Shown here piece by piece: positions 5,949 through 60,515 of a stretch of 64,000 nucleotides of DNA. The DNA lies in contig DOZJ01000006.1 in the NCBI GenBank assembly GCA_003518055.1, forward strand, positions 201,631 through 265,630, given 5' to 3'. Source of the DNA: Candidatus Falkowbacteria bacterium (GTDB lineage: Bacteria; Patescibacteriota; Patescibacteriia; UBA11705). A model generated the notes under the pieces. The model was given only the letters and a program-made list of their open reading frames with translations. It had not been told where the DNA came from and ran no database searches. Positions within the stretch are counted from its first letter, which is position 1; each line of letters begins with the position of its first letter. The position numbers and the translations under genes are program-made.

Positions 5949-6680
5949 ATGTCTGCAAGCGATGTTGTAAAAGAATTAAAAGCTTTAAAAGATCCGAAAA
6001 AAGCCAATAATTTGGCTTGGTTTTTTAAAACAGGGAAGGGTGAATACGGCGAAGGTGATAAGTTTCTGGGAATCGTGATGGGTGATTTGCGGCAAATAGC
6101 GAAAAAATATTGTGACTTGCCGTTAACTGAAGTTCAAAAATTGGTTGTTAATCCTTACCACGAAATAAGAATGGCCGCGTTGTTGGTTCTGGTTTATAAA
6201 GTTACGGATTTACAGAAATTACGAATATTACGAACACGAGAAATTGATTCTTTGAAACAAATTTACGATTTTTATTTGAAAAATACTAAATATATTAATA
6301 ATTGGGATTTGGTGGATGTGACAACGCCGCAAATCGTAGGGAATTATTTGGTCAATCGAGACCGGAAGATATTATACAAATTAGCCAAGTCAAAGAGCTT
6401 GTGGGAAAAAAGAATCGCTGTCTTGGCGACCTTTTCGTTTATTAAAAATAGGGATTTTCATGATGCCTTGAAAATAGCTGAAGTTTTACTTAATGATAAT
6501 CATGACTTGATTCATAAGGCGGTAGGATGGATGCTCCGGGAGGTGGGTAAACGAGATCCGGCGGAGGAAAGAGCTTTTCTTGATAAACATGGTTTAAATA
6601 TGCCGAGGACGATGTTGCGATATGCGATTGAAAAGTTTCCGGAGCCAATGAGACAGAAGTATTTGAAAAGAAAATCCTAA
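5949..6680 (+). CDS. DNA alkylation repair enzyme (AlkD/AlkC HEAT-like repeat family)
   Basis: 243 aa with N-terminal KANNLAWFFKTGKGEYGEGDKFLG and a HEAT-repeat architecture typical of PF08713. Confidence 0.7.
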   Translation: MSASDVVKELKALKDPKKANNLAWFFKTGKGEYGEGDKFLGIVMGDLRQIAKKYCDLPLTEVQKLVVNPYHEIRMAALLVLVYKVTDLQKLRILRTREIDSLKQIYDFYLKNTKYINNWDLVDVTTPQIVGNYLVNRDRKILYKLAKSKSLWEKRIAVLATFSFIKNRDFHDALKIAEVLLNDNHDLIHKAVGWMLREVGKRDPAEERAFLDKHGLNMPRTMLRYAIEKFPEPMRQKYLKRKS

Positions 6681-18404: not shown

Positions 18405-18497
18405 TCTCCTGATAATGTCAGGAGATTTTTAATTTTTAGTTGATTGACGAAAGGAAAAAATGATGATAGAATATTTTTGTTATTTCTTGTTTTTTTT

Positions 18498-18572
18498 GCC
18501 TCCATCGTCTAGCGGTTAGGACATCGCCTTCTCACGGCGGAAACCGGGGTTCGATTCCCCGTGGAGGTACCA
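18498..18572 (+). tRNA. tRNA-Glu (anticodon CUC)
   Basis: 75-nt cloverleaf with acceptor GCCTCCA/TGGAGGT, a CTC anticodon in the loop cTTCTCAc, a GGTTCGATTCC T-arm and an encoded CCA end. Preceded by a TTGACG-N17-TAGAAT promoter at ~18446-18475. Confidence 0.85.
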
Positions 18573-18592: not shown

Positions 18593-18690
18593 GAGCTTCG
18601 GCTGGCACGGCCAGTACTATAGCTTTTTAAATGAGCTTCGGCTGGCACGGCCAGTACTATAGCTTTTTAAATGAGCTTCGGCTGGCGAGC
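18593..18690 (+). repeat. 40-bp tandem repeat x2.5 (GAGCTTCGGCTGGCACGGCCAGTACTATAGCTTTTTAAAT) immediately 3' of tRNA-Glu
   Basis: Two perfect copies and one partial copy. Each unit contains a CTGGC-acg-GCCAG hairpin followed by a T-run. Confidence 0.85.
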
Positions 18691-18814: not shown

Positions 18815-18852
18815 TTTTTTTTGTACGAAAAAACCTGAACGATGTCAGGTTT
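18815..18852 (-). terminator. rho-independent terminator of the GC-rich cassette A (minus strand)
   Basis: AAACCTGAacgatgTCAGGTTT hairpin, followed on the minus strand by a T-run. Confidence 0.6.
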
Positions 18853-18883
18853 GGGGAAGTTGAGGCGGGAAAGAACTGGTGGG

Positions 18884-19429
18884 CTAGAGGTGGAAGTCGG
18901 TGCAGATGATGGATTCGAGCATGTTGTAGGAGTCGTCCCATTCGGGATGCTCGGGGTCGTGGCAGCGGAGGTCGGGCAGGTCGTCGGCGAAGGTGCCTTG
19001 GGTGACGGTGCCGGCGGGAACGGTGCGTCTGGTGCGGATGGCGACCGTGAGCTCGGCCACGGTCTGCAGCGCGATGATGTCGGGGTGGGTCGGGTCTCCG
19101 GTTTCGCGCAGGATCTCGATGGCGCGTCGGGCGTGATTCGGGCCGTAGTAGAAGTTGTACTGGCCCGTCTCGATCTTCCCGTGCTTCTTCACGTCGCCGA
19201 AGTCGATCACGAAGCGCTTGCCGCCGGCCCAGTCGATGTAGAAGCGGCTGGTGGCGTGTTCGAGCAGAATGGCGAGCGCCCCCACGTCGTCGATGATGTT
19301 GGGGGTGGGGTCGGCGGCGCTGACGCCGAACTTGACGCCGGCGTTGTACAGAGCCGCCAGAATATCTTCCTCGACGAGTCCTTGAACGTCCACGATGCTG
19401 TCGTGGGTGCAGGTGCGATCGAATGGCAT
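18884..19429 (-). CDS. hypothetical protein encoded in GC-rich island A (181 aa)
   Basis: Body ~65% GC against ~40% in the flanks. AAGGAGGAGG RBS and the shared TTGACT-N17-TATAAT promoter immediately upstream, with a terminator downstream. The overlapping plus-strand ORF is regarded as a GC artefact. Confidence 0.55.
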   Translation of the reverse strand: MPFDRTCTHDSIVDVQGLVEEDILAALYNAGVKFGVSAADPTPNIIDDVGALAILLEHATSRFYIDWAGGKRFVIDFGDVKKHGKIETGQYNFYYGPNHARRAIEILRETGDPTHPDIIALQTVAELTVAIRTRRTVPAGTVTQGTFADDLPDLRCHDPEHPEWDDSYNMLESIICTDFHL

Positions 19430-19490
19430 GGTTTTCTCCTCCTCCTTAAAGCGGCCGTTGAGAGCGAAGGAACAGTTGAATTAACTTTAA

Positions 19491-19519
19491 ATTATATCAT
19501 ATATTTATCAAAAAGTCAA
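19491..19519 (-). promoter_or_regulatory. shared promoter module, copy A (TTGACTTTTT-N-TATGATATAAT)
   Basis: Minus-strand -35 TTGACT and -10 TATAAT with a 17-nt spacer. A near-identical 35-nt module recurs at 50097-50128 and 55685-55716. Confidence 0.7.
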
Positions 19520-19753
19520 TAGGCTGGGGGGCGGTTATTGTTTAAACGATATGAGCAGCCTTTATTTGGCTTAAAATGGACGATATTTGTCCTTGGTGGA
19601 ATTGTGTATTATTAATGAACCATGAAGAGCATTTTTTTTGTTGTGAAAAAAAGGAATATTGGGTATAATTTATGGCAGAAGTATAATTGACGTCGGAGAA
19701 ATAAAGCTTAAAAGGATTATAAAAAATAAGTTTATAAATTTAATTTTAATTAT

Positions 19754-20609: not shown

Positions 20610-20981
20610 ATGCCTACTTCATATCGAGAATTAAGAATTTGGAAGAAAGGATACGATCTTCTTTTGGAGGTTTATGAAATAACGAGTCATTATCCAAATG
20701 GTGAAAAATTTGGCTTGGTTTCTGATACTAGACGTTCGGCTAATTCGATTATCGCCAATATTGCGGAAAGCCATGGGCGTTATTACTTTCTGGATAAAAT
20801 TAGGGTTTTATATATTGCTAGGGGTGAAGTTGAGGAAGTGAGAAGTCATTTAGAAGTGGCTTTTGGGGTGAATTATTTAACACAAGAAGTTTATAAAAAA
20901 TTAGATTTAGAGTATCAAGGTTTATTAATTGGTTTAAATGAATACATAAACAGCATTTTTAAAGAAAAAAATAAAACTTAA
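20610..20981 (+). CDS. four-helix-bundle protein (23S rRNA intervening-sequence protein / Avd-like family)
   Basis: 123 aa. YRELRIWKKGYDLLLEVYEITSHYP...GLVSDTRRSANSIIANIAESHGR matches the PF05635/TIGR02436 signature. Confidence 0.8.
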   Translation: MPTSYRELRIWKKGYDLLLEVYEITSHYPNGEKFGLVSDTRRSANSIIANIAESHGRYYFLDKIRVLYIARGEVEEVRSHLEVAFGVNYLTQEVYKKLDLEYQGLLIGLNEYINSIFKEKNKT

Positions 20982-49002: not shown

Positions 49003-49034
49003 CAAACGAAAAAGACTCCAGGTTTGAAGTCTTT
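49003..49034 (-). terminator. terminator of GC-rich cassette B (AAAGACTccaggtttgaAGTCTTT), bidirectional with uppP
   Basis: 7-bp stem. On the minus strand it is followed by TTTTTCGTTT. Confidence 0.55.
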
Positions 49035-49067
49035 TCTCAATGTTGTGAGATTTGTTCGATCAGTGGG

Positions 49068-49622
49068 TTAGTAGCGGAATGCTTCATCTTCGAGTGGGAG
49101 GCCGAGCGCGGAGCCCAGCCGGTGAAGGCCGAGCCAGATCAGGGCGATGAGGCTCACGACGTAGCCGATGGCCATGAACGGCCAGACGAACGACATCAGA
49201 CCGATGTACGTGCCGCGTTCGCCGACGATGTTGGTCCCGAAGGATAGCTTTTCCGGGATTTCGACATCGTTAATGTTGCTATCTCGGTCGAGAAACGCTG
49301 GCAGGAGTGACGGGAACAGGATGAAGTGGTACCAGCGGATGTGGTCGAGCCGGAAGAAGATCCGGCTGACATCCCTGCTGGGAAGCTTGTAATGCCCCAA
49401 GAGAGTCAGTCTGAACTGGTATCCTTTGTTGGCCTCGTGCCACCGGATCCAGCCGTAGATCAGGCCGAATGCGAAGTAGCCGAGCGGAATCATGACGAAC
49501 CAAGTCCACAGGAACGCGTGAGCGGCTTCCATGTATTTCTCTTTCCGGTCAGCATTGGCTGACTGAATTGACGTTGTTTGAGCTTCAGGCACGCTCGAAG
49601 GACAGGTTTTCTTGGCCGTCAT
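49068..49622 (-). CDS. membrane protein encoded in GC-rich island B, distal gene (real start probably MEAAHAF… near 49532)
   Basis: ~62-65% GC with 3-4 TM helices. Lies downstream of and slightly overlapping the 145-aa ORF. The listed start overlaps the upstream gene. Confidence 0.45.
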   Translation of the reverse strand: MTAKKTCPSSVPEAQTTSIQSANADRKEKYMEAAHAFLWTWFVMIPLGYFAFGLIYGWIRWHEANKGYQFRLTLLGHYKLPSRDVSRIFFRLDHIRWYHFILFPSLLPAFLDRDSNINDVEIPEKLSFGTNIVGERGTYIGLMSFVWPFMAIGYVVSLIALIWLGLHRLGSALGLPLEDEAFRY

Positions 49623-50022
49623 CGTCGATGTAGTAGTTGAATACTTCTCCGTTGTATTCGGCTTTGAGCGCTCGGGCGAAGTAGATTCGGGTGGCGGACT
49701 GTTCGATGTATATGGTGATGTAGAACGTCGATCCTGACGGGAAGCTGATCGAGGCTAGGATATGCCAGTCCCAGCCGGCGCCGTTGTGGAATTCCTTCAG
49801 ATCAGGATTGAAGAGAGTGGTGGCGACCGGATTGCCGAAGTTGGCCTGGAGAATTGCGGCATATGCGTTCAGCACGGCGATCGTTTTGAGATCGATACGT
49901 GTCAGTGTCAGCTTCGTGCCGGATTTACGGCACTTGTCCGAGATGCTCCTTGAGACAAATCCGGGCAGCGTCGGATCGATACCCAGAAACAGCCGAGCCA
50001 TGTCACGACCATGAGCGTTCAT
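49585..50022 (-). CDS. hypothetical protein encoded in GC-rich island B, proximal gene (145 aa)
   Basis: ~65% GC. GGGAGGGAAACC RBS, a structured 5' UTR and shared promoter module copy B immediately upstream. Confidence 0.5.
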   Translation of the reverse strand: MNAHGRDMARLFLGIDPTLPGFVSRSISDKCRKSGTKLTLTRIDLKTIAVLNAYAAILQANFGNPVATTLFNPDLKEFHNGAGWDWHILASISFPSGSTFYITIYIEQSATRIYFARALKAEYNGEVFNYYIDDDGQENLSFERA

Positions 50023-50096: not shown

Positions 50097-50128
50097 ATTA
50101 TATCATACTTTGAATAAAAAGTCAATAG
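50097..50128 (-). promoter_or_regulatory. shared promoter module, copy B (TTGACTTTTTATTCAAAGTATGATATAAT)
   Basis: Minus-strand TTGACT-N17-TATAAT, near-identical to copies A and C. Confidence 0.7.
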
Positions 50129-55372: not shown

Positions 55373-55439
55373 TAGAATGTAGGTAACGGTTTCAAATCAT
55401 CGCGTGTGATATAAAATAGTATAGCAGATGAATTGATTT

Positions 55440-55684
55440 TTAAAAGGTTATTTAAAATATTAAACCGCCGGGCGCTTGCGCTCGGCGGTGTCGAACTGGT
55501 TTGAATTGTAGGCTCTTGCGGCCCCATAACCGTTGAAAGAGCGGATCTCTTCGGCTCGGGGTGGTTGGCTCGCAAGGGGCAGTTTGCCCGCGCCCATGAT
55601 CACTGCTCCATTCCTTGTTTCGGGTCATTTCACGTATCGTGAATCTCCTAGAGCTGCGCCGTTGCAGCTCATATGGGCATATAT
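55440..55684 (-). promoter_or_regulatory. GC-rich (~63%) structured leader/small-RNA-like segment between shared promoter copy C and the methyltransferase gene
   Basis: Contains perfect hairpins GAGCTGCaacggcGCAGCTC and TTCACGataCGTGAA, and ends in CCGCCGagcgcaagcgccCGGCGG plus TTTAATATTTT, which is terminator-like. It could encode a 45-aa peptide (MGAGKLPLASQ…) instead. Confidence 0.35.
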
Positions 55685-55716
55685 ATTATATCATGTTTGT
55701 ATAAAAAGTCAATAGG
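55685..55716 (-). promoter_or_regulatory. shared promoter module, copy C (TTGACTTTTTATACAAACATGATATAAT)
   Basis: Near-identical to copies A and B. Oriented toward the GC-rich leader and the methyltransferase. Confidence 0.7.
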
Positions 55717-55837
55717 AATTACAATTATTATGAAAAAAAGGCTAAAATATGTGTGTCTGTACGCTTTTGAGATTCAAATTGTTGACATGTTTGATAAATT
55801 GTGATAATATTTAAAGTCTCAAACAAGGAGGAGACAC

Positions 55838-60140: not shown

Positions 60141-60515
60141 ATGGTCACTGTGTATTATAAGGATTTGAGTTATGAATTGAATGGTTTAGCATTTGAAATG
60201 TTTAAGTATCATGGCTACGGACAAAGAGAAAAAACATATTGTGATTATTATTGCTCATTGTTAGATGAGAAAAATTTGAAGTATAAAAGGGAAAGATATA
60301 TCCCTGCACTTTGTCACAATGAAAAAATATTAAAACGCTACGCAGATATTATTGTTGAAGATTTGGTGGTGATTGAAATGAAAGTGGGTAAGCGTCTTCG
60401 AAAAGTAAGTTTTGATCAAACTTTAGAGTATCTGAAATTATTAGATAAAAAATTGGGATTATTAATTTGGATTTCTCCCAATGGGGCTCAAGTTTATAGA
60501 GTTCTGAATGGTTAA
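60141..60515 (+). CDS. GxxExxY family protein (PDDEXK_3 nuclease-fold family)
   Basis: 124 aa. LNGLAFEMFKYHGYGQREKTYCDYY matches the GxxExxY motif region of PF13366. Flanked by inverted R4 repeats. Confidence 0.65.
   Translation: MVTVYYKDLSYELNGLAFEMFKYHGYGQREKTYCDYYCSLLDEKNLKYKRERYIPALCHNEKILKRYADIIVEDLVVIEMKVGKRLRKVSFDQTLEYLKLLDKKLGLLIWISPNGAQVYRVLNG

What the first reader, a model, noticed from the sequence alone, without database searches (positions are those of the whole stretch)
18815..19523. GC-rich (~65%) single-gene island A next to tRNA-Glu, driven by a near-consensus promoter module that recurs twice more in the window
The 181-aa minus-strand ORF (18884-19429) has ~65% GC in a ~40% GC genome. 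It is equipped with a textbook host-like expression context: TTGACT-N17-TATAAT, AAGGAGGAGG 5 nt before the ATG, and a hairpin plus T-run terminator. It lies right after tRNA-Glu, a 2.5x 40-bp tandem repeat and a solo R3 repeat, which is the classic neighbourhood for integration. The same 35-nt promoter module (CTATTGACTTTTT…ATGATATAAT) heads two other GC-rich segments (50097-50128 and 55685-55716). This looks like a family of compositionally foreign cargo genes moved or domesticated together with a portable strong promoter. No integrase or transposase is present in the window.
Basis: seen in the sequence. Interest (0 to 1): 0.7.

Follow-up and report, generated by a model that had tools for sequence, protein, structure and literature searches.

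The report
Persistently GC-rich, strongly promoted orphan gene
A small gene in a Falkowbacteria (candidate phyla radiation) chromosome is far richer in G+C than its surroundings and has a near-perfect promoter, but it is an old resident from a phage-associated protein family of unknown function rather than a recent import, and public annotation calls it on the wrong strand.

Summary
ORF 18884-19429(-) is 63.9% GC with GC3 0.885, in a 42% GC window where 57 resident ORFs average GC3 0.44 (maximum 0.56). It has a TTGACT-N17-TGATATAAT promoter, a strong Shine-Dalgarno site and an intrinsic terminator, and lies beside tRNA-Glu(CUC). Similar promoters head two more GC-rich segments.

- The "module" is the generic optimal sigma-70 promoter. 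The same 23 specified bases occur in more than 117 Bacillota and Patescibacteria loci, mostly before ordinary genes and tRNAs.
- There is no integrase and no att repeat.
- A related Falkowbacteria genome has an ortholog (45% aa) at the same locus, equally GC-rich (GC3 0.84 in a 37.5% GC background). Synonymous sites between the two genomes are saturated (LexA dS about 3).
- Island B is also syntenic and GC-rich in relatives.
- Island C is probably a small RNA.

The 181-aa protein belongs to a large uncharacterised, phage-associated domain family (about 1000 cluster representatives) with no Pfam or PDB match. GC richness therefore seems actively maintained in a class of small, fast-evolving, head-on, strongly promoted orphan genes. 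The cause is unresolved. Gene callers record the antisense ORF.

The parts
19491..19522 (-). Promoter of island A: CTA-TTGACT-N17 (T-rich spacer, TG at -15/-14)-TATAAT, a near-perfect extended -10 sigma-70 type site
   Evidence: Sequence; consensus scan 11/12 with TG; exact pattern match; one of only four TTGAC-N-TGnTATAAT sites in the window. Activity was not tested.
19430..19484 (-). 5' UTR (about 55 nt) with the Shine-Dalgarno tract AAGGAGGAGGAG ending 6 nt before the ATG
   Evidence: Sequence. Apart from the promoter and Shine-Dalgarno elements, this UTR does not align with the ortholog's UTR in L176.
18884..19429 (-). 181-aa CDS. It belongs to the CPR-specific branch of a widespread, uncharacterised, phage-associated domain family. 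Family motifs are LAALYNA, D..GK, Y..G..A..I..L..TGD; the branch ends in C-x4-L at the C-terminus.
   Evidence: GC3>GC1>GC2 periodicity. Homologs P0001 at 2.5e-26 and P0002. The profile search finds 999 cluster representatives. AF2 pLDDT is 85. Subfamily alignment A6.
18815..18883 (-). 3' UTR plus intrinsic terminator (hairpin 18832-18851, T-run on the minus strand). Unusually conserved compared with the relative.
   Evidence: Sequence. About 90% identical to L176, with 36 of 37 nt identical across the hairpin and T-tract, while the ORF is 67% identical.
18498..18572 (+). tRNA-Glu (anticodon CTC), convergent with island A. It has a promoter of the same class at 18443-18472.
   Evidence: ARAGORN; Rfam 60 bits; promoter pattern.
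18593..18686 (+). 40-nt tandem repeat, 2.35 copies at 100% identity, in the tRNA 3' flank. Its GAGCTTCGGCTGGCAC core is present once in the relative L176.
   Evidence: TRF; repeat finder; alignment.
50097..50128 (-). Promoter of island B (CTATTGACTTTTT-N9-ATGATATAAT)
   Evidence: An equivalent promoter, ATATTGACTTTTTAATAAAAATATGATATAAT, sits at the syntenic site of L179.
49585..50022 (-). Island B gene 1: a 145-aa orphan with GC3 0.685
   Evidence: The only database match is itself (P0003, annotated as a Candidatus Falkowbacteria hypothetical protein). It is weakly similar (19% identity, pairwise E 1e-4) to a GC3 0.88 gene at the syntenic site of L183. It is absent from L179.
49068..49532 (-). 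Island B gene 2: a 154-aa hydrophobic, probable membrane protein with GC3 0.80
   Evidence: A 37%-identical ortholog (E 2e-30) lies at the syntenic site of L179, with GC3 0.73 in a 39% GC genome.
49003..49036 (-). Terminator of island B (hairpin AGACTTC/GGAGTCT plus T-run). It also lies directly after the stop codon of bacA on the + strand, so it may act in both directions.
   Evidence: Read from the sequence. No scan was run on this region.
55685..55715 (-). Promoter of island C (CTATTGACTTTTT-N8-ATGATATAAT, 16-nt spacer)
55445..55678 (-). Island C transcript: a GC-rich (55%), structured unit of about 230 nt ending in a terminator hairpin (55462-55487) plus T-run. It is probably a small RNA rather than the 45-aa ORF 55460-55597.
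   Evidence: Fold z-score -3.3. No Rfam family matches. Blocks are conserved with L179 but indels of 4, 5, 2 and 3 nt break the frame, and the L179 ORF stops after 10 codons.

Best explanation
Island A is a genuine, self-contained transcription unit in a Candidatus Falkowbacteria chromosome. It consists of an optimal housekeeping-sigma promoter (-35, 17-nt spacer, extended -10), a strong Shine-Dalgarno site, a 181-aa ORF and an intrinsic terminator. It is transcribed opposite to its neighbours, and probably head-on to replication.

The protein is the CPR-specific branch of a large uncharacterised domain family. Elsewhere that family sits among small early or accessory genes of phages and other mobile elements.

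The unit is not a recent insertion and did not arrive with a portable promoter. It was already at this locus in the common ancestor of at least two Falkowbacteria species. Its protein sequence evolves fast. Its GC richness, spread over the whole transcribed region, has been kept although synonymous sites have turned over completely. So the composition is being actively maintained and is not a fading footprint of transfer.

Island B behaves the same way. Similar small GC-rich orphan units with the same promoter occur in other Falkowbacteria and in some other CPR genomes.

Inferred, not shown: these are domesticated, moron-like accessory genes, possibly involved in phage or host conflict. They are expressed at very high constitutive or inducible levels. 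I think the GC richness is most likely maintained by selection on the transcript, for example mRNA stability, structure or translation.

The shared 'module' is convergence on the promoter optimum.
For: 1. Real coding gene.
- GC3 (0.885) > GC1 > GC2.
- Homologs at E 2.5e-26 and 999 profile hits.
- AF2 pLDDT 85.
- Conserved subfamily motifs, including an invariant Cys and the C-terminal Leu.

2. Mobile-element association of the family.
- 16 IMG/VR contigs carry a member, mostly with GC close to that of the contig.
- Streptomyces phage Gilgamesh gp28, Xanthomonas phages and Dulem virus 39 carry it near recombinase, exonuclease, SSB or RecT genes.
- 10 of 60 members match phrog_12532.
- One member lies in an array of small genes next to DUF3846 and Tad4.

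3. Old resident.
- L176 has the same gene order (LexA, 23S_rRNA_IVP, orf96-like, orf77-like, GC gene, terminator, tRNA-Glu).
- Its ortholog is 45% identical, 63% GC, with GC3 0.84 in a 37.5% GC background.
- LexA is 91% aa identical with dS about 3.2.
- At 4-fold sites of the GC gene, 25 of 44 are identical against 22 expected at saturation, yet both genes are about 90% G+C there.

4. Island B is syntenic and GC-rich in L179 and L183.

5. The island genes carry the resident strand skew at 4-fold sites: +0.52, +0.20, +0.14 and +0.33, against +0.29 (sd 0.2) for residents.

6. Generic promoter.
- More than 117 exact hits in other genomes.
- Downstream GC excess of at least 0.10 in 0 of 86 non-CPR hits, 2 of 25 other CPR hits and 2 of 2 Falkowbacteria hits.
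- The tRNA-Glu promoter is of the same class.

7. No integration scars.

8. All six other CPR-subfamily or close members examined (P0001, P0002, P0004-P0007) are GC-richer than their surroundings, in differing contexts.
Against: - The reason for the maintained GC richness is not shown.
- Glycolytic genes, which are presumably highly expressed, are not GC-rich (enolase GC3 0.49, PGK 0.47).
- The fourth perfect promoter in the window drives a normal-GC gene. High expression alone therefore does not produce the effect.
- GC1 and GC2 are also raised, which fits a directional pressure or a foreign origin better than pure codon selection.
- At greater distance the same neighbourhood holds a non-homologous GC-rich gene (L148). 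Gene 1 of island B comes and goes. Both fit cassette turnover.
- Only one close relative (L176) supports the synteny argument for island A.
- Expression and function are untested.
- That the + strand is the leading strand is inferred from GC skew and gene orientation only.
Confidence: 0.5

Rival explanations
1. Cassette turnover at fixed hot spots. The promoter- and terminator-bounded slots are resident. Their ORFs are repeatedly replaced, by recombination or natural transformation, with alleles or unrelated genes from an unsampled GC-rich pool, such as phages, plasmids or the high-GC host bacteria of these episymbionts. The GC richness would then always be young.
For: - A different, non-homologous GC-rich gene (106 aa, GC3 0.85) lies between murF and tRNA-Glu in L148.
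- Island B gene 1 is absent in L179 and barely recognisable in L183.
- The 3' UTR and terminator are about 90% conserved while the ORF is 67% identical and the 5' UTR does not align.
- GC3 varies among subfamily members from 0.61 to 0.89, as if they were at different stages of amelioration.
- The wider family occurs in phages of high-GC hosts such as Streptomyces and Xanthomonas.
- All the island proteins are orphans.
Against: - No GC-rich donor was found. The nearest relatives of the 181-aa protein all sit in low-GC CPR contexts and share a subfamily-specific C-terminal motif.
- IMG/VR holds no close relative of A181, B145 or B154.
- The window and L176 genes are homologous, in the same place and the same orientation.
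- The 4-fold skew equals the resident skew.
Confidence: 0.25
2. These are recently acquired foreign cargo genes from a high-GC donor, inserted next to a tRNA and spread together with a portable strong promoter module.
For: - Extreme GC and GC3 deviation.
- Moron-like anatomy of own promoter and terminator.
- Position next to a tRNA.
- Three units share a promoter that is identical in 23 positions.
Against: - A syntenic, equally GC-rich ortholog exists in a relative at synonymous saturation.
- Island B is syntenic in two relatives.
- There is no integrase, att repeat or transposase.
- The promoter identity is confined to consensus positions, and the same string is common before ordinary genes in other phyla.
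- No high-GC donor homologs closer than about 30% identity were found.
Confidence: 0.08
3. GC-biased gene conversion. These loci are recombination hot spots, for example because alleles are exchanged often under diversifying selection, and biased repair of heteroduplexes drives them to high GC.
For: - The proteins diverge fast: 45% and 37% aa identity where LexA and BacA are 91% and 74%.
- GC1, GC2 and GC3 are all raised.
- G and C are not distinguished beyond the resident skew.
Against: - The GC-rich zone coincides with the transcribed region and stops sharply at the AT-rich promoter and at the terminator.
- The effect (GC3 0.88 against 0.44) is, from my own knowledge, far larger than any gBGC signal reported in bacteria.
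- No recombination data are available.
Confidence: 0.1
4. Artefact: either an assembly chimera, or a chance ORF in GC-rich non-coding DNA with the real feature on the other strand.
For: Both strands carry long ORFs (226 aa on +, 181 aa on -). Public gene callers chose the + ORF.
Against: - The same sequence appears in independent assemblies.
- The minus-frame protein has about 1000 homolog clusters and a confident fold.
- The GC3 periodicity fits the minus frame.
Confidence: 0.02

Closest known systems
Phage morons (independent accessory transcription units in prophages, e.g. HK97 gene 15; Cumby et al. 2012, PMC3594210)
   Same: One or two small genes with their own promoter and terminator and a GC content different from the neighbours. 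The encoded protein family is otherwise found among phage accessory or early genes.
   Different: It is not inside a prophage. The neighbours are murF, tRNA-Glu, lexA, dinB, bacA and manC. It is not 'more DNA' relative to a related genome, because the ortholog is at the same site. The compositional difference persists over saturated divergence, whereas in morons the GC difference is read as a sign of horizontal transfer (PMC3594210).
tRNA-adjacent genomic islands and integrative elements
   Same: Atypical composition next to a tRNA gene.
   Different: It has no integrase, no direct repeat of the tRNA 3' end, only 0.7 kb of DNA, and it is conserved in a relative.
phrog_12532 and the unnamed 'LAALYNA' domain family (Streptomyces phage Gilgamesh gp28, Xanthomonas phage Alcala QTZ82577.1, Dulem virus 39 XCD07496.1)
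   Same: It shares the core domain of about 100 aa (profile E-values down to 1e-20 for non-CPR members) and the predicted alpha/beta fold. BFVD matches of about 115 aa reach TM 0.65-0.70 normalised to the target.
   Different: The CPR branch has an N-terminal M.FDRT.T motif and a C-terminal extension of about 60 aa ending in C-x4-L. It is chromosomal with its own promoter, and it is GC-richer than its genome, whereas phage members mostly match their phage.
Stable-RNA type promoters (consensus -35, 17 nt, extended -10) of Bacillota and Patescibacteria
   Same: Same sequence class as the tRNA-Glu promoter in the window and as promoters in front of tRNAs in many Bacillota MAGs.
   Different: Here it drives small protein-coding orphan genes on the strand opposite to their neighbours.

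Membership tests
Phage moron | Own promoter | tested here: met
   TTGACT-N17-TGATATAAT at 19519..19491(-). This is a sequence match only; activity was not tested.
Phage moron | Own terminator | tested here: met
   7-bp G+C-containing hairpin at 18832-18851 followed by a T-run on the minus strand. It is conserved in L176.
Phage moron | [quoted passage not shown] | tested here: met
   63.9% against 42.6% (sd 3.5%), z = 6.1.
Phage moron | Located inside a phage or prophage genome | tested here: not met
   The neighbours are MurF, tRNA-Glu, 23S_rRNA_IVP, LexA, NUDIX and DinB. No phage structural or integrase genes were seen among the flanking ORFs examined.
Phage moron | Extra DNA that is absent at the same position in related genomes | tested here: not met
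   An ortholog lies at the same position in L176.
tRNA-targeted integrative genomic island | Integrase or recombinase gene | tested here: not met
   There are no ORFs other than the 181-aa gene between the tRNA (18572) and the next gene (19754).
tRNA-targeted integrative genomic island | Direct repeat of the tRNA 3' end at the distal boundary | tested here: not met
   The 25-nt 3' end of the tRNA occurs once in the window with up to 3 mismatches allowed. No flanking direct repeats were found.
LAALYNA-domain family (phrog_12532-like) | Significant sequence match to the family profile | tested here: met
   A profile built from the window protein plus two homologs retrieves 999 representatives at E<1e-3 and 94 at E<1e-10. 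L27 and N29 are invariant and Y28, D66, G70, Y91 and G96 nearly invariant across 60 members.
LAALYNA-domain family (phrog_12532-like) | Direct match of the window protein to the PHROG HMM | tested here: not met
   The window protein itself matches no PHROG. 10 of 60 aligned relatives match phrog_12532, best E 8e-6.
Anti-defence proteins of mobile elements (e.g. Tad-type sponges) | Homology or fold match to a characterised anti-defence protein | tested here: not met
Anti-defence proteins of mobile elements (e.g. Tad-type sponges) | Demonstrated inhibition of a defence system or binding of a signalling nucleotide | not testable with these tools
   Needs biochemistry or genetics.
Known RNA families (for island C) | Rfam covariance-model match | tested here: not met
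   Only the tRNA passes gathering thresholds in the window. Nothing better than E 0.5 is found in 55380-55740.

The most novel reading that the evidence does not exclude
Falkowbacteria, and some other CPR bacteria, carry a distinct compositional class of genes. These are small, fast-evolving orphan units, partly phage-derived, driven by the strongest promoter type of the cell and oriented against their neighbours. Their high G+C is actively maintained for as long as species diverge, either by selection on the transcript or by a GC-biased molecular process not yet described. Standard gene callers systematically miss these genes or call them on the wrong strand.
Probability: 0.35. Interest if true: 0.75.

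Novelty: new variant of a known kind. Interest (0 to 1): 0.55.

Why it matters
Atypical GC is routinely read as a sign of recent horizontal transfer. Here that reading fails: the composition survives complete synonymous turnover between species. Something other than ancestry, whether selection or a biased process, must hold these genes at about 64% GC in about 40% GC genomes.

If this is general, it defines an overlooked and probably highly expressed part of the CPR proteome. It may be tied to phage or host conflict. It is largely absent from protein databases because gene finders trained on the AT-rich background pick the antisense ORF.

It also flags a domain family of about 1000 clusters, phage-associated, with no Pfam entry and no solved structure, as a candidate for experimental work.

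Tried and rejected
Function and fold searches that found nothing:
- Pfam, PHROGs, PADLOC and NCBIfam scans of the island proteins.
- A PDB sequence-profile search.
- BFVD gave only unnamed viral proteins of about 115 aa.
- The afdb50 fold library was unavailable.

RNA searches: Rfam at gathering thresholds and at E<10 for island C found no family.

Searches for donors or relatives:
- The phage and plasmid BLAST with the window protein itself found nothing. A more typical family member was needed to get hits.
- IMG/VR scans for B145, B154 and the CPR subfamily found no close relatives.
- A search for an att-type repeat of the tRNA 3' end found none.

Explanations considered and rejected:
- Translational selection for optimal codons. 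Enolase, PGK and PGM genes are not GC-rich, GC1 and GC2 are raised too, and a fourth perfect promoter drives a normal-GC gene.
- Transcription-driven mutation bias, for the same reason.
- A DGR connection, prompted by the neighbouring 23S_rRNA_IVP/bAvd-like gene. I did not pursue it: nothing links it to the island, and I did not screen the window ORFs for a reverse transcriptase.
- An operator common to the three promoters. None is evident by eye downstream of the -10 elements.
- tRNA-Glu(CUC) as a codon-supply partner. The gene uses GAA and GAG 5:5, so this is unconvincing.

Literature searches found no description of GC-rich mini-islands in CPR genomes.
Full report
**What is there**

The window is a 42.2% GC stretch of a bacterial chromosome. 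GC skew is strongly positive throughout, and 44 of 57 resident ORFs are on the + strand. The organism is a Candidatus Falkowbacteria bacterium (Patescibacteria/CPR) from groundwater. The 145-aa island B protein is 100% identical to an NCBI TPA entry of that name, and the locus recurs in independent JGI, ENA and Logan assemblies.

- ORF 18884..19429(-), 181 aa, is 63.9% GC with GC1/2/3 = 0.63/0.41/0.885.
- Resident ORFs average GC 0.426 (sd 0.035) and GC3 0.438 (sd 0.066, maximum 0.559). That gives z = 6.1 and 6.8.
- Upstream lie TTGACT-N17-TATAAT with TG at -15/-14 and AAGGAGGAGGAG ending 6 nt before the ATG.
- Downstream lies a hairpin plus T-run.
- tRNA-Glu(CTC) is at 18498-18572.
- A perfect 40-nt tandem repeat of 2.35 copies is at 18593-18686.
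- The string CTATTGACTTTTT-N9-ATGATATAAT is exact at 19491-19522(-) and 50097-50128(-). It recurs with N8 at 55685-55715(-).

**The ORF is a real gene, and it is annotated on the wrong strand**

The order GC3 much greater than GC1, and GC1 greater than GC2, fits the minus frame. The protein has homologs at E 2.5e-26. A three-sequence profile retrieves 999 cluster representatives at E<1e-3 from 1.84 billion proteins. AlphaFold2 on a 60-sequence alignment gives pLDDT 85 and pTM 0.74.

The exact 181-aa product is not on record in the public gene catalogues. The antisense 226-aa ORF 18842..19522(+) is on record in five contigs. The same error occurs in the island B regions of relatives, where antisense ORFs were called in L179 and L183. 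Protein-database counts for such genes are therefore underestimates.

**What the protein is**

The conserved core is about 100 aa. Its consensus reads roughly GLxKAAVLAALYNA...FDYLxGRxxKVDL...YDRxNGxGAAxxxIxxLRxTGD. L27 and N29 are invariant, and Y28, D66, G70, Y91 and G96 nearly so.

- It has no Pfam, NCBIfam, PADLOC or PDB sequence match.
- In BFVD only unnamed viral proteins of about 115 aa match, at TM 0.65-0.70 normalised to the target.
- Ten of 60 members match phrog_12532, a family of unknown function.
- Members occur in 16 IMG/VR contigs.
- They occur in cultured phages (Streptomyces phage Gilgamesh gp28, seven Xanthomonas phages, one Xylella phage and Dulem virus 39), among small early genes near recombinase, exonuclease, SSB or RecT genes.
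- One member sits in an array of small genes next to DUF3846 and Tad4.
- In most phage contigs the gene's GC is close to that of the phage.

The window protein belongs to a CPR-specific branch (P0001, P0004-P0007). That branch has an N-terminal M.FDRT.T motif and a C-terminal extension ending in an invariant Cys and a terminal Leu. The function is unknown. An accessory role in conflict with phages or hosts is a guess from neighbourhood only.

**The promoter is not a portable module**

The three copies agree only at the functional positions: CTA, the -35 element, the T-run, and A-TG-A-TATAAT. Their spacers differ.

Most hits are in Bacillota and Patescibacteria and lie upstream of ordinary genes and tRNAs. 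In the window, the tRNA-Glu promoter is of the same class (ATTGAC...ATGATAgAAT). A fourth perfect TTGAC-N-TGnTATAAT site drives a normal-GC gene. The shared string is therefore the optimum of the housekeeping promoter.

- Three of the four perfect promoters in the window precede the three GC-rich segments.
- Both exact hits in Falkowbacteria RIFOXYC2_FULL_36_12 (L043 and L119) precede small GC-rich ORFs.
- A downstream GC excess of at least 0.10 occurs in 0 of 86 non-CPR hits, 2 of 25 other CPR hits and 2 of 2 Falkowbacteria hits.

**It is an old resident, not a recent insertion**

There is no integrase, no transposase, and no repeat of the tRNA 3' end.

The decisive comparison is with contig L176, from a related species. 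LexA there is 91% aa and 79% nt identical to the window's. L176 has the same gene order: LexA, 23S_rRNA_IVP, orf96-like, orf77-like, then the GC gene, terminator and tRNA-Glu. It carries one extra R2K-domain gene in between.
- Its ortholog P0006 is 45% aa identical to the window protein.
- That ortholog is 63% GC with GC3 0.84, in a 37.5% GC background.
- It has its own promoter, CTGTTGACAAATTTTTAAAAGTATGATATAAT.

Synonymous sites between the two genomes are saturated. LexA dS is about 3.2. In the GC gene, 25 of 44 shared 4-fold sites are identical against 22 expected by composition alone. Yet both copies are about 90% G+C at those sites. A foreign gene left to the resident AT-biased mutation pressure should have ameliorated over that distance.

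The island genes also carry the resident replication-strand skew at 4-fold sites: +0.52, +0.20, +0.14 and +0.33, against +0.29 (sd 0.2) for residents.

Island B behaves alike.
- In L179/L180 (BacA 74% identical), the bacA-manC gap holds the promoter ATATTGACTTTTTAATAAAAATATGATATAAT. It also holds a 37%-identical ortholog of the 154-aa membrane protein, with GC3 0.73 in a 39% GC genome. Gene 1 is missing there.
- In L183 (BacA 62% identical, 36% GC), the gap holds a 159-aa gene with GC3 0.88 that is only faintly similar to B145.

All six other subfamily or close members examined are GC-richer than their surroundings, in differing contexts. These are L001, L003, L176, L178, L195 and L196.

**Turnover also happens**

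In L148 (MurF 52% identical), the murF to tRNA-Glu interval carries a different, non-homologous 106-aa gene. It is on the opposite strand, has GC3 0.85, and has its own TTGACG-N17-TATGAT promoter and Shine-Dalgarno site. Other examples are L153 (65 aa), L028 and L077 (Saccharibacteria), and L043 and L119. All are orphans without Pfam matches.

**Mechanism**

Shown:
- A self-contained, intact unit.
- Membership of a phage-associated family.
- Long residence at this locus.
- Persistence of GC richness across synonymous saturation.
- A generic promoter.
- Orientation opposite to the neighbours for all three units.

Inferred:
- Very strong constitutive or inducible expression.
- A domesticated moron-like origin.
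- Active maintenance of GC.

I favour selection acting on the transcript, for three reasons. The GC-rich zone is co-extensive with the transcribed region. The 5' UTRs of islands B and C contain apparent inverted repeats (seen by eye for B; predicted by folding for C). The probable sRNA of island C shares the promoter and the composition. This is weakly supported.

High expression alone does not explain the composition. Enolase, PGK and the fourth perfect-promoter gene have normal GC. GC1 and GC2 are raised too.

The main rival is repeated replacement of the ORF from an unsampled GC-rich pool. It would explain the non-homologous occupants and the loss or gain of gene 1. It could also explain why the 3' UTR and terminator are about 90% conserved next to a 67%-identical ORF and an unalignable 5' UTR. 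GC-biased gene conversion is a third possibility.

**Island C**

The 45-aa ORF is probably not the product. The homologous region in L179 keeps the promoter, the Shine-Dalgarno-like block plus ATGGGCGCGGG, and several internal blocks. But it differs by indels of 4, 5, 2 and 3 nt, and its ORF stops after 10 codons. The transcript of about 230 nt folds better than shuffles (z = -3.3) and ends in a terminator. No Rfam family matches.

**Comparison with known systems, and verdict**

The anatomy equals that of a phage moron: own promoter, own terminator, deviant GC (PMC3594210). Two defining features fail. The unit is not in a prophage, and it is not extra DNA relative to a related genome. It is also not a tRNA-integrated island.

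I found no description of such units in CPR literature.

I rate it a new variant of a known kind, of moderate to high interest. What would surprise a specialist is not the 'island' itself. It is that its foreign-looking composition is conserved between species, and that the gene is invisible to standard annotation.

Noticed in passing
window 18842-19522 (+) versus 18884-19429 (-); also L179 11283-11780 and L183 11495-11860: Public gene catalogues record the antisense ORF (226 aa) of island A in five contigs, and the true 181-aa gene is not on record. Antisense calls were also made over the GC-rich genes of relatives. GC-rich genes in these AT-rich genomes seem to be systematically mis-annotated.
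   Followed up: yes
window 55445-55715 (-); L179 19140-19445 (-): The third GC-rich segment is probably a small RNA of about 230 nt with a consensus promoter and a terminator. It is conserved in a relative, with indels that break the reading frame. No Rfam family matches.
   Followed up: partly
window 18815-18883 (-); L176 6170-6250: The 3' UTR and terminator of island A are about 90% identical to the relative (36 of 37 nt across the hairpin and T-tract). The ORF is 67% identical and the 5' UTR does not align. This could be a functional 3' UTR element, a bidirectional terminator shared with tRNA-Glu, or a recombination handle.
   Followed up: partly
L148 8551-8871 (-), between murF and tRNA-Glu: A more distant relative carries a different, non-homologous 106-aa orphan in the same neighbourhood and in the opposite orientation to murF. 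It has GC3 0.85 in a 43% GC genome, with its own promoter and Shine-Dalgarno site.
   Followed up: partly
L043 3153-3371 (+) and 5014-5796 (+); L119 about 6290-6500 (+): In Falkowbacteria RIFOXYC2_FULL_36_12 (36% GC) both exact copies of the promoter string precede small GC-rich ORFs of 72 and 70 aa. A further segment of about 64% GC, partly masked by N, lies next to a 23S_rRNA_IVP gene.
   Followed up: partly
L028 3750-4040 (-); L077 (83-aa ORF after the module); L153 10786-10983 (-): Saccharibacteria and other CPR MAGs also have small GC-rich ORFs (GC3 0.74-0.79 where measured) directly behind the same or a near-identical promoter, each followed by a terminator-like hairpin.
   Followed up: no
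window 18884-19429, 49068-50022, 55445-55678 (all on the - strand): All three strongly promoted units lie on the minority strand (13 of 57 resident ORFs). Judging by GC skew, that is head-on to replication, which is unusual for genes with the strongest promoters.
   Followed up: partly
window 18593-18686: A perfect 40-nt tandem repeat of 2.35 copies lies directly after tRNA-Glu. Only its GAGCTTCGGCTGGCAC core is present, once, in the relative L176, so the duplication is recent.
   Followed up: partly
window 20610-20981 (+) and 60141-60515 (+): These two ORFs are the most AT-rich in the window (31.5% and 30.4% GC). One is a 23S rRNA-intervening-sequence/bAvd-like four-helix-bundle protein and the other a PD-(D/E)XK_3 nuclease-family protein. 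L176 has two IVP copies flanking lexA.
   Followed up: no
L176 4537-5463 (+): The relative has an extra R2K_3/R2K_2 (ATP-grasp-like) gene between the orf77-like gene and the GC-rich gene. It is absent from the window, so the upstream side of the locus has been rearranged.
   Followed up: no
L197 8001-9351: A non-CPR family member (P0012) lies in a one-directional array of small genes on a 55-kb contig, immediately before a DUF3846 gene and one gene before a Tad4 (Thoeris anti-defence 4) gene. This hints that the family belongs to anti-defence gene neighbourhoods.
   Followed up: no
L178 70-986: In another CPR contig the family member (P0004) is preceded, in an apparent operon, by a second GC-rich 106-aa orphan. 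Both are flanked by AT-rich DNA.
   Followed up: no
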